Positions 36,369-39,639 of a DNA stretch of 64,000 bases are shown here, one piece after another; within the stretch, counting starts at the first letter, position 1; every line of letters starts with the position of its first letter. The notes below the pieces were generated by a model. It was given only the letters and a program-made list of their open reading frames with translations. It was not told where the DNA came from and did no database searches. A program made the translations under genes and the position numbers. This DNA comes from Octopus vulgaris (lineage: Eukaryota): contig OX597817.1 of NCBI GenBank assembly GCA_951406725.2, forward strand, positions 23,436,001 to 23,500,000, read 5' to 3'.

Positions 36369-37051
36369 CTGTCTTCCTTTATTTCATCCTAAGTTTTTAC
36401 ATTCATTCGTATTTACTTTCACTTTCTTTTTCGTCTTCTGGATATTCATTTCTATATTTCATAAACACAATATCTACAAACCTTTCCCGAGATTCATTAT
36501 TTTCTCTCTACTATTTTAAACTTTAGAATATTAACGATAACTGTAGGTTTTCAATCTATATCAAACTATATATAATCTTTTCTTCCAATACCATAATTCA
36601 CTGTTTACGATTTAATATTTTGCTAAATCTCCCGCCTCCCTCTTATAGTAAAACGCTTTATTAATTTTATTACTTATTGTCTGCCATATATCAATATTTT
36701 CAAAGTTGACACAGCGTTTGTTGAAAAATATATTATGTTGAATGAAAGTAACTAAAATATTCTTTGACCTGATGACCAAGCAACTTTACCTGTATTAATT
36801 TATAAATTATACAATTCTGCTATATAATTTATACTATATACTTTCATACAGGCAATATAAAATAATTCATTCCATACAGTTCTATATTTAAGAGACGAAG
36901 AATTATGCACATTACTTACATTATTTATATTTGACGGATATTTGTCCTCATCTTCTTTGTTAACACAACGTCGGCTGATATACCCTCCAGCCTTCATCAG
37001 GTGTCTTGCAGAATTTCAAACCTGGGTTCTTATTCCTAAGGTATTTTTCGA

Positions 37052-38023
37052 TATTATTATTATTATTATTATTATTATTATTATTATTATTATTATTATT
37101 ATTATTATTATTATTATTATTATTATCATTATTATTATTATTATTATTATTATTATTATTATTATTATTATTATTATTATTATTATTATTATTATTATTA
37201 TTATTATTATTATTATTATTATTATTATTATTATTATTATTATTATTATTATTATTATTATTATTATTATTATTATTATTATTATTATTATTATTATTAT
37301 TATTATTATTATTATTATTATTATTATCATTATTATTATTATTATTATTATTATTATTATTATTATTATTATTATTATTATTATTATTATTATTATTATT
37401 ATTATTATTATTATTATTATTATTATCATCATCATCATCATCATCATCATCATCATCATTATTATTATTATTATTATTATTATTATTATTATTATTATTA
37501 TTATTATTATTATTATTATTATTATTATTATTATTATTATTATTATTATTATTATTATTATTATTATTATTATTATTATTATTATTATTATTATTATTAT
37601 TATTATTATTATTATTATTATTATTATTATTATTATTATTATTATTATTATTATTATTATTATTATTATTATTATTATTATTATTATTATTATTATTATT
37701 ATTATTATTATTATTATTATTATTATTATTATTATTATTATTATTATTATTATTATTATTATTATTGTTATTATTATTGTTATTGTTATTGTTGTTGTTG
37801 TTGTTGTTGTTGTTGTTGTTGTTGTTGTTGTTGTTGCTGTTGTTGTTGTTGTTGTTGTTGTTGTTGTTGTTGTTGTTGTTGCTGTTGTTGTTGTTGTTGT
37901 TGTTGTTTATTATGTATCATGTATTATTATTATTATTATTATTATTATTATTATTATTATTATTATTATTATTATTATTATTATTATTATTATTATTATT
38001 ATTATTATTATTATTATTATTAT
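37052..38023. repeat. (ATT)n/(ATC)/(GTT) microsatellite, ~970 bp
   Basis: Read directly. Confidence 0.98.
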
Positions 38024-38071
38024 ATTGTAAAATAACTTAGGAATGCGAACCAGGTTCGAAATTTCCCCCAA

Positions 38072-38117
38072 GACACCTGATGAAGGCTGGAGGGTATATC
38101 AGCCGAAACGTTGTGTT
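38072..38117 (+). ncRNA. Minimal type-I hammerhead ribozyme
   Basis: gacac-CTGATGA-a-ggctg[gagggtatat]cagcc-GAAAC-GTT-gtgtt: 5-bp stem I, 5-bp stem II, palindromic ACGT stem III. Confidence 0.8.
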
Positions 38118-39639
38118 AACAACAAACAAGATGAGGACATTTCCGTCAAATGCAAATAATGTATATGAAATTCATTTCATATTATACACTAAAATAATTT
38201 CTTTTTTATATGATAAATGCTGCGAAACAATCATCGTTAAATGAATATGAAATAAATATATTTATCATATACGTCTTTTTCTTTATATTCTATGCTCTTC
38301 TAATGAAATAACCATTACCAAATTGTTTATTGGTTTCTCGGAATATACAAAATAAGCCTTTGTTTTGTTTTGTTTATTATGTGGTTCACAGTATGATCCA
38401 CTAAAGTACATTTTTTATGAGTACTGAACATTAAATTTAGATATATTTATATATATATATATATATATATATATATATAGCTTATTAAAGTTCGTGCAGC
38501 TGAAGAGAGTACTGCAATTAAATTAACGTAATGAATGCAATGTTCAATAAAATGGAGTCGCTTGAAACTGTCGTACTGCATTACTACTTGACATGCTGTT
38601 GCTTATTTTGATATATATGTATATATATGTGTGTGTTTGTGGGTGTGAAAGTATGTATGCATGCGTATATGTGTGTGCGCATGTATAAAAATATGCATAA
38701 ACTTCTATTCCCAATATGAAAATACTCTTTGAAAAAGTTTATACTTACGAGAAATATTTTAGTCTACCGTTTCTTCCTAGAGAAATACAGTTGTATATGC
38801 CTAATTTGCTATAATAATAAGCGGAATGTGGTTAAATAAATAATTATTAGATTTCATTATATCCCATGAGTGCCTTGTGTAATTACATTACGTTATATTA
38901 AACATGAAAAGATTTTAGCGTGAACATAATTAGCAAGGATACATGGTTGAAGCATACATACATATATATATATATATATATATATATATATATATATATA
39001 TATATATATATATACTTATGTATATCTATAGTCATATATATATAGAGAGAGAGATATATAGTCATATATATACATATATATGTAAGTATATTTATATATA
39101 TGTATATATATATATATATATATATATATATATATATATGTATATGCACCTCGCTACCTAGCTACCAACGTATGTATGTGTGTGTGTGTGTGTGTGTGTG
39201 TGCATATTTGTGTCTCATTTCACACCGATTTACAACAGGGGTGCTGAAAAGTTCCTGGCTTTAAAAGTATCGCGCAAAAGGAAAGGTTATTTCTACTCAG
39301 ATGATGGAGGCTCAATTTCTAACACGTTTATTGCTTCCATTACGGCATGCATATTGTGATGAAATAGATGTACCAATATTATGATGATTCTCCCAGCCCC
39401 TAGAAAAACCTGCTCATCCCCTTTAATATTCTTCCCCTTTGATCTTCTCTGGCTTTTCATCTATTACTATAAATATCTACATATTTATAATTCAAGCTCT
39501 GATTTCTCTCATTTTGCCTGTATACATATATACATATTTTGTGTATCAAAACAAATCTGTTTTATGTAATTTGTTTATCCGTACAATTGCCTCTCTCTAT
39601 ATTCATCTTTCTCTCTCTCTCTCTTCCACCACGGCCAGC

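What the first reader, a model, noticed from the sequence alone, without database searches (positions are those of the whole stretch)
36917..38163. Hammerhead-ribozyme arms in inverted orientation bracketing a 1-kb (ATT)n tract
Seen: two ~140-bp arms are reverse complements. The right arm has a full minimal HHR (38072-38117: CUGAUGA, stem II GGCUG/CAGCC, GAAAC, GUU site, stem I GACAC/GUGUU). The left arm has the same motif on the minus strand but has lost AA from GAAA. Known: Penelope-like elements carry minimal HHRs in pseudo-LTRs, often inverted, whose palindromic stem III is thought to need dimerisation. Inference: a non-coding, ribozyme-terminated, microsatellite-filled PLE derivative, or two insertions targeted to TAA repeats.
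Basis: partly seen in the sequence, partly recalled or inferred. Interest (0 to 1): 0.72.

Follow-up and report, generated by a model that had tools for sequence, protein, structure and literature searches.

The report
Inverted Penelope retrotransposon stub with hammerheads
The two mirror-image arms are short end-pieces of a very common protein-coding jumping gene (a Penelope-type retrotransposon), likely left by one old insertion in the head-to-head layout already described for these elements; the long ATT run between them is likely the element's own short repeat linker grown long, and the ribozymes are predicted to be silent here.

Summary
The arms and the minimal hammerhead are real. The arm is the terminal repeat (pLTR) and ORF start of a high-copy RT plus GIY-YIG Penelope-like element: 1,218 exact copies of its 39-nt ribozyme core occur in this genome. 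The locus looks like one insertion: a 13-bp target-site duplication encloses both arms, and only the left arm carries the ~35-nt PLE tail. This is the family's commonest form: 56 of 90 sampled copies have a head-to-head partner, and 52 of those 56 have a one-sided tail. The (AAT)n run is an internal linker of the element, not a target; it is unusually long here. Opposite-strand minimal hammerheads, inverted pLTRs, tails and TSDs are all in print. Loss of the left core is ordinary decay, and arm-arm pairing is predicted to bury the ribozyme. 'Non-coding derivative' and 'two TAA-targeted insertions' are not supported. The one unusual family trait, a tRNA-like head where many copies begin (possible Pol III promoter), is absent from this copy, and this scan noted it before elsewhere in this genome. 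Ordinary new member of a known kind.

The parts
36864..36876 (+). Left target-site duplication (13 nt; last 2 nt shared with the element end)
   Evidence: Matches 38169-38181 with 1 mismatch; score 12, reached by 0.16% of mismatched flank pairs
36875..36912 (-). PLE 3' 'tail' (~35-40 nt), on this arm only
   Evidence: Left arm aligns to the end (position 182) of a tailed sibling copy; right arm stops at position 145
36875..37052 (-). Left arm: pLTR 3' part / ORF start, with tail; start codon lost and frame broken
36962..37005 (-). Decayed minimal type I hammerhead (GAAA box reduced to GA)
   Evidence: only 7 of 40 unselected partner arms keep both boxes and GUH
37053..38023 (-). Element's internal (AAT)n/(AAC)n linker, expanded to ~0.97 kb, in the left copy's orientation; no tRNA-like remnant
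38024..38163 (+). Right arm: inverted second copy, 5'-truncated at the arm start, no tail; reads as the N-terminus of the PLE protein (ATG at 38043)
   Evidence: (64% identity over 25 aa to the N-terminus of P0003)
38072..38117 (+). Intact minimal type I hammerhead; predicted cut after 38112 (GUU); palindromic AACGTT instead of a stem III loop
   Evidence: equals the family majority over 38072-38122
38169..38181 (+). Right target-site duplication, 5 nt after the arm end

Best explanation
The locus holds two head-to-head, 5'-truncated copies of the terminal repeat of a high-copy RT plus GIY-YIG Penelope-like retrotransposon between a 13-bp duplication, likely from a single old insertion in which both cut ends of the target primed reverse transcription on the element's RNA. 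Shown: family order is ORF (RT, GIY-YIG), short 3' UTR, tRNA-like segment, (AAT)n linker, arm (hammerhead overlapping the ORF start), optional tail; this copy has a TSD and a one-sided tail. The linker then likely grew by slippage from tens of bases to ~1 kb, and the arms decayed neutrally. In the active element the hammerhead would cleave weakly as a dimer through AACGUU or with protein help (known for relatives, untested here). At this locus it is predicted silent: only one intact copy per strand, and any read-through RNA would pair arm to arm.
For: 1,218 exact matches to the 39-nt core in the genome, reversed control 0. 26 of 29 loci picked by the endonuclease region carry the arm just downstream on the same strand. 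A 569-aa frame with RT and GIY-YIG-type motifs; RVT_1 E 5.5e-10 in L049; 2,914 homologs at E<=1e-20, some with Pfam GIY-YIG. The arm's frame runs into the N-terminal half and RT in L046 (E 9e-72 to P0003), and the window's right arm matches the P0003 N-terminus. In 90 loci (the first 92 of 1,218 matches): 56 have a head-to-head partner within 1.5 kb, 2 a tail-to-tail one, 5 a direct one; 52 of 56 pairs have the tail on exactly one arm; TSD score >=10 in 25 of 56 against 1.7% of mismatched flank pairs; 57 of 73 arms with an intact 5' edge follow an AAT-rich run, 0 of 73 an ATT-rich one. The tail lies on the shorter copy in 27 pairs, the longer in 22, about equal 3, both/neither 4, which simple snap-back of the tailed cDNA does not explain. 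Arm-arm identity is 92.2% against a median of 92.7% in 45 pairs. Both junctions are in one run labelled as another organism (X5), and the left one in a third (X7), with ~1-2% differences. Published: opposite-strand min-HHRs 100-700 bp apart (PMC4209133); inverted pLTR, 8-10-bp TSD, 31-bp tail (PMC3846280); both target strands cut and extended, two RT starts defining the tail, HHR over the ORF start (PMC11167929). The whole-locus fold has 119-121 arm-arm pairs, with the stem II closing pair at ~1e-25 against 0.67 for the ribozyme alone.
Against: No empty target site was seen in the runs laid, so the TSD rests on sequence alone; it is AT-rich, has 1 mismatch and 5 extra nt on the right. 31 of 56 sibling pairs score under 10 for a TSD. 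The window's right arm follows an ATT run, unlike 0 of 73 siblings, which needs the junction to fall exactly at the arm edge. Pfam GIY-YIG did not hit the family's own decayed protein, and RVT_1 in L052 was under the curated cut-off. There is no stem covariation or extra conservation of the core within the family (substitution 0.050-0.063 in all classes, 3 compensatory cells over 10 pairs in 79 copies). This is expected of dead copies but gives no structural support. Rfam finds no hammerhead. Twin priming is inferred from statistics, not observed.
Confidence: 0.92

Rival explanations
1. Two independent PLE insertions, in opposite orientation, into or beside a pre-existing (TAA)n microsatellite.
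For: A Poseidon endonuclease prefers 5'-ATT-3' in vitro (PMC11167929); some sibling pairs sit in simple repeats (L131, L144); the tract here is far longer than sibling linkers (855 against at most 219 nt by the same measure).
Against: One TSD outside both arms; one-sided tail; 56 head-to-head against 2 tail-to-tail pairs; the (AAT)n run sits at a fixed place inside the element, between the tRNA-like segment and the arm.
Confidence: 0.03
2. A distinct non-autonomous, ribozyme-ended, microsatellite-filled unit (retrozyme- or MITE-like) that moves as arm-(ATT)n-arm.
For: Most copies are short and non-coding: only 7 of 90 have endonuclease sequence within 1.5 kb upstream. Retrozymes are proposed to derive from pLTRs (bioRxiv 10.64898/2026.07.22.740005).
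Against: Junctions and spacers differ in every pair (0 to 1,333 nt), so no shared unit exists. No tandem array. The arm is the ORF start of the autonomous element. Ends match PLE RT starts, not the ribozyme cut site.
Confidence: 0.03
3. Same single PLE insertion, but the inverted arm arose by snap-back self-priming or a template switch rather than by priming at both target ends.
For: Many sibling junctions are palindromic at the tRNA-like start; self-priming was proposed for PLE inversions (PMC3846280). In this copy the tail is on the longer arm, which fits snap-back.
Against: In 27 of 56 pairs the tail is on the shorter copy, which copying the first cDNA cannot produce; the window junction has only a 2-nt overlap.
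Confidence: 0.2

Closest known systems
Minimal type I hammerheads (min-HHR) in pLTRs of metazoan PLEs (Cervera and De la Pena 2014, PMC4209133; parts 1-2 of 4 read)
   Same: Short stem I (5 bp), extra nucleotide between 9 and 10.1, G10.1-C11.1, palindromic 15.2-16.2 with no loop III, thousands of mostly truncated copies, dual motifs on opposite strands close together.
   Different: Spacing here is ~1.07 kb rather than 100-700 bp, because of the expanded linker; stem II is 5-6 bp; the site is GUU.
Poseidon element PAc of the anole (Frangieh et al. 2024, PMC11167929; parts 1-2 of 4 read)
   Same: RT plus C-terminal GIY-YIG, HHR overlapping the ORF start, tail defined by two RT start sites inside the ORF start, AT-rich targets.
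   Different: Here the ATG lies ~34 nt before the HHR core, and the pLTR holds a tRNA-like segment and an (AAT)n linker, not mentioned for PAc in the parts read.
Inverted-pLTR insertions of EN+ PLEs (Adineta vaga, PMC3846280; overview in PMC8557442; passages read)
   Same: 5'-truncated copy with an adjacent inverted copy, 30-40-nt tail at one end, short TSD.
   Different: TSD is 13 nt (8-10 in the passages read); no ORF body left in this copy.
Animal non-LTR retrozymes (bioRxiv 10.64898/2026.07.22.740005; part 1 of 5 read)
   Same: Type I HHR, PLE connection, non-coding copy.
   Different: Retrozymes are tandem monomers with an HHR in each unit; this is an inverted truncation product of a coding element.

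Membership tests
EN+ Penelope-like element (family level) | Single ORF with RT followed by C-terminal GIY-YIG endonuclease | tested here: met
   569-aa frame in L052, RVT_1, near full-length homologs with PF01541; 16-aa GIY-YIG motif with two cysteines as column majority of 29 copies
EN+ Penelope-like element (family level) | pLTR both before and after the ORF, overlapping the ORF start | tested here: met
   Arm directly upstream of the N-terminal half in L046, L050, L054 and downstream of EN in 26 of 29 loci
EN+ Penelope-like element (this copy) | 5' truncation with adjacent inverted copy, one-sided 30-40-nt tail, TSD | tested here: met
Penelope/Poseidon clade | No extra CX2-5CxxC finger between RT and EN (present in Neptune and Nematis, PMC8557442 passages) | tested here: met
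   None in the L052 linker; one decayed copy inspected, plus P0001 and P0003 by eye
Penelope/Poseidon clade | Placement in an RT tree with named references | not tested
Minimal type I hammerhead | CUGANGA and GAAA boxes, NUH, stems I and II, extra nt at 9/10.1, palindromic stem III | tested here: met
   Right arm; not met in the left arm
Minimal type I hammerhead | Stem covariation | tested here: inconclusive
   No signal among 79 near-neutral copies; two unrelated motifs in the genome keep the core with a different paired stem II (L198, L202)
Minimal type I hammerhead | Self-cleavage (dimer or protein-assisted) | not testable with these tools
   Needs an in vitro assay
Non-LTR retrozyme | Tandem non-coding monomers, each with an HHR | tested here: not met
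   5 of 90 copies have a direct partner; the arm belongs to a coding element
tRNA-derived SINE | tRNA-related 5' head with A and B boxes | tested here: not met
   Absent from this copy; present in siblings (48 of 90)

The most novel reading that the evidence does not exclude
The parent family is a protein-coding Penelope element whose pLTR opens with a tRNA-derived RNA polymerase III promoter, so that the element and its thousands of SINE-like short copies were transcribed by Pol III, and its head-to-head stubs, this one included, record priming at both target ends. Support: 29 of the 45 copies that reach the tRNA-like start end within -9..+4 of it (0.046 per base against 0.001-0.007 elsewhere); relaxed ARAGORN of 30 against a shuffled mean of 3; no run of four T in the copies' majority over ~2.5 kb (codon shuffles give none with P ~0.02 per 1.4-1.7 kb). 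Against: a native palindrome at the same spot could cause the pile-up, default ARAGORN and Rfam see no tRNA, single copies do carry T4, no RNA data, and this copy lacks the head.
Probability: 0.3. Interest if true: 0.65.

Novelty: new member of a known kind. Interest (0 to 1): 0.2.

Why it matters
As a locus it matters little: one of many thousands of decayed PLE stubs, in a layout published since 2013-2014. Two family-level points have some value. First, counts on 56 sibling pairs (one-sided tail in 52, on either copy about equally) give genomic support for priming at both target ends, in line with the PAc in vitro data. Second, the tRNA-like head, if it is a Pol III promoter, would be an arrangement I did not find in print for PLEs (searches); it is not in this copy and earlier reports of this scan already describe it. 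The element's internal linker also seeds long trinucleotide tracts and attracts other (AAT)n-tailed retroposons.

Tried and rejected
Rfam scans for a hammerhead and for a tRNA in a sibling head: nothing. ARAGORN at default: 0 of 13 loci, 0 of 30 heads. Pfam on three short fragments: nothing. PDB: only weak RT hits, best E 0.014. Within-family covariation: no signal. tRNA-like remnant in this tract: none; the high 5'-extent value for the window reflects linker length only. A degenerate hammerhead pattern for other families gave 36 matches (control 1), of which 28 look like mutated copies of this family and 8 unrelated; only two of the 6 inspected had a clean stem II. Host-gene context: 100 of 123 stop-free frames scanned, only a mariner transposase relic hit; whether the locus is intronic is unknown. 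Lunse et al. (dimer cleavage of PLE hammerheads) was not held and is known to me only through a review's passages (PMC6765202). PMC10886601 and PMC13282606 passages held nothing on this family; supplements and repeat libraries (Repbase, Dfam) were not seen and may already contain it. Look-ups of earlier findings by sequence and near this place returned nothing.

Full report
Observation. The two arms are reverse complements, 85.5% identical over 138 columns, far above shuffles. The right arm holds a complete minimal type I hammerhead at 38072-38117; it is the only hit of a stem-checking descriptor in the window, with 0.01 hits per shuffled window. The left copy lacks two A of GAAA. Rfam does not detect the motif, and alone it folds stem II but not the junction. 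The tract between the arms is 976 nt of ATT with ATC and GTT blocks.

What the arm belongs to. The window lies in a 2.8-Gb genome; size and repeats suggest an octopod cephalopod, which is my untested inference. The 39-nt ribozyme core occurs exactly 1,218 times (control 0). Upstream of some copies lie GIY-YIG-type and RT coding pieces. Among 29 loci picked only by the endonuclease region, 26 carry the arm just downstream on the same strand, in the order EN, short 3' UTR, tRNA-like segment, (AAT)n, arm, optional tail. One copy keeps a 569-aa RT-EN frame; RVT_1 is found and 2,914 homologs match, some with Pfam GIY-YIG. In L046, L050 and L054 an upstream arm continues in frame into the N-terminal half of the ORF. 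The window's right arm itself matches the N-terminus of an 847-aa homolog (64% over 25 aa). So the arm is the pLTR end and ORF start of a Penelope/Poseidon-type element, as in PAc, where the hammerhead overlaps the ORF start (PMC11167929, parts 1-2 of 4 read). The clade call rests on domain order and the lack of a Neptune-type finger, not on a tree.

One insertion, ordinary layout. I took the first 92 of the 1,218 matches (90 loci). 56 have a head-to-head partner within 1.5 kb, 2 a tail-to-tail one and 5 a direct one. The tail is on exactly one arm in 52 of 56 pairs. A flanking duplication scoring 10 or more is found in 25 of 56 against 1.7% of mismatched flank pairs; the window scores 12 (36864-36876 and 38169-38181; null 0.16%). 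57 of 73 arms with an intact 5' edge follow an AAT-rich run and none an ATT-rich run. Hence the whole tract reads as the left copy's linker, and the right copy starts at the arm edge. The sample is biased to copies with a perfect core and comes from one chromosome. Opposite-strand min-HHRs 100-700 bp apart (PMC4209133, parts 1-2 of 4 read) and inverted pLTRs with TSD and one-sided tail (PMC3846280, PMC8557442, passages) are published.

Age and decay. The arms are 92.2% identical in aligned columns, near the median of 92.7% for 45 pairs; only 7 of 40 unselected partner arms keep both boxes and GUH. In 79 copies not picked by the ribozyme, core, stems, loop and flank diverge alike (0.050-0.063) with 3 compensatory cells, and 27 of 79 cores are intact. 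So there is no covariation support, and no sign of selection after insertion. Contigs of run X5 (labelled as another organism) bridge both junctions and X7 the left one, with 11 differences in 529, 4 in 314 and 8 in 486 bases; the insertion is likely older than those splits. No empty site was seen.

The tract. Sibling linkers have a median of 36 nt and a maximum of 219 nt (105 measured) against 855 nt here by the same rule; L089 shows (AAT)101. Slippage is the likely cause in a window with many long trinucleotide tracts; assembly inflation is not excluded, since the tract was not checked against reads.

Mechanism. Shown: anatomy, TSD, one-sided tail, family order. Known: PAc cuts and extends both target strands and starts RT at two sites that define the tail; its hammerhead cleaves only with protein and is dispensable for insertion in vitro (PMC11167929); min-HHRs cleave weakly as dimers (PMC4209133). 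Inferred: both target ends primed on element RNA, one at each start, and the cDNAs were joined. The tail lies on the shorter copy in 27 pairs and on the longer in 22, which simple snap-back of a tailed cDNA cannot give, although this copy alone fits either route. Predicted: the ribozyme is silent here, since each strand has at most one intact copy and the whole-locus fold pairs the arms (119-121 pairs; stem II closing pair ~1e-25 against 0.67 alone).

Family side finding. Siblings carry a ~73-nt tRNA-like segment before the linker; 26 of 30 loci picked by it have the arm downstream, so it is part of the pLTR and not a free SINE. Of 146 copies examined, 45 reach its start and 29 of these end within -9..+4. 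Relaxed ARAGORN of 30 against 3.05 in shuffles, default calls none, and Rfam none. The copies' majority has no T4 over 1,509 plus 985 nt; codon shuffles give none with P about 0.02 each, but single decayed copies do have T4 (66 in 43.5 kb; L052 has the expected 3). A native palindrome at the hotspot is a rival cause. Six paper searches showed no report of a tRNA-headed PLE; supplements and repeat libraries were not seen. I reached this reading; the look-ups then showed that this scan had reported it elsewhere in this genome. The window's copy lacks the segment.

Verdict. Real, well explained and ordinary: a decayed inverted PLE stub with an unusually long linker. Interest 0.2.

Noticed in passing
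L098/L211, L112, L054 and other siblings (not in the window copy): tRNA-like ~73-nt segment with A/B-box-like motifs opens the pLTR; 5' ends pile up at its start, often as a snap-back palindrome; no shared T4 run along the element. Possible Pol III promoter.
   Followed up: partly
L089, L106, L117, L028; L114, L120, L008; L116, L026, L046, L011: Three other (AAT)n-tailed repeats adjoin or sit inside the element's linker; one reads like the 3' end of an R4/Dong-type LINE (label recalled, not tested). The linker appears to be a landing pad.
   Followed up: no
L198, L202 (also L188, L189, L206, L208): Unrelated hammerhead-like motifs with the same core, extra A and ACGT palindrome but different stem II; probably other PLE families.
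   Followed up: partly
   Followed up: no
window 7783-8532 (+): Broken mariner-type transposase (Pfam HTH_48 and Transposase_1).
   Followed up: no
window 6254-6986 and 60168-60715: Tandem copies of a ~184-nt SINE-like repeat; many long trinucleotide tracts elsewhere (42547-44068, 60992-61388), none flanked by this PLE arm.
   Followed up: partly
window 38164-38181: The right flank also reads as a short perfect hairpin (8-bp arms) overlapping the TSD; the 5 extra bases before the TSD are unexplained.
   Followed up: no
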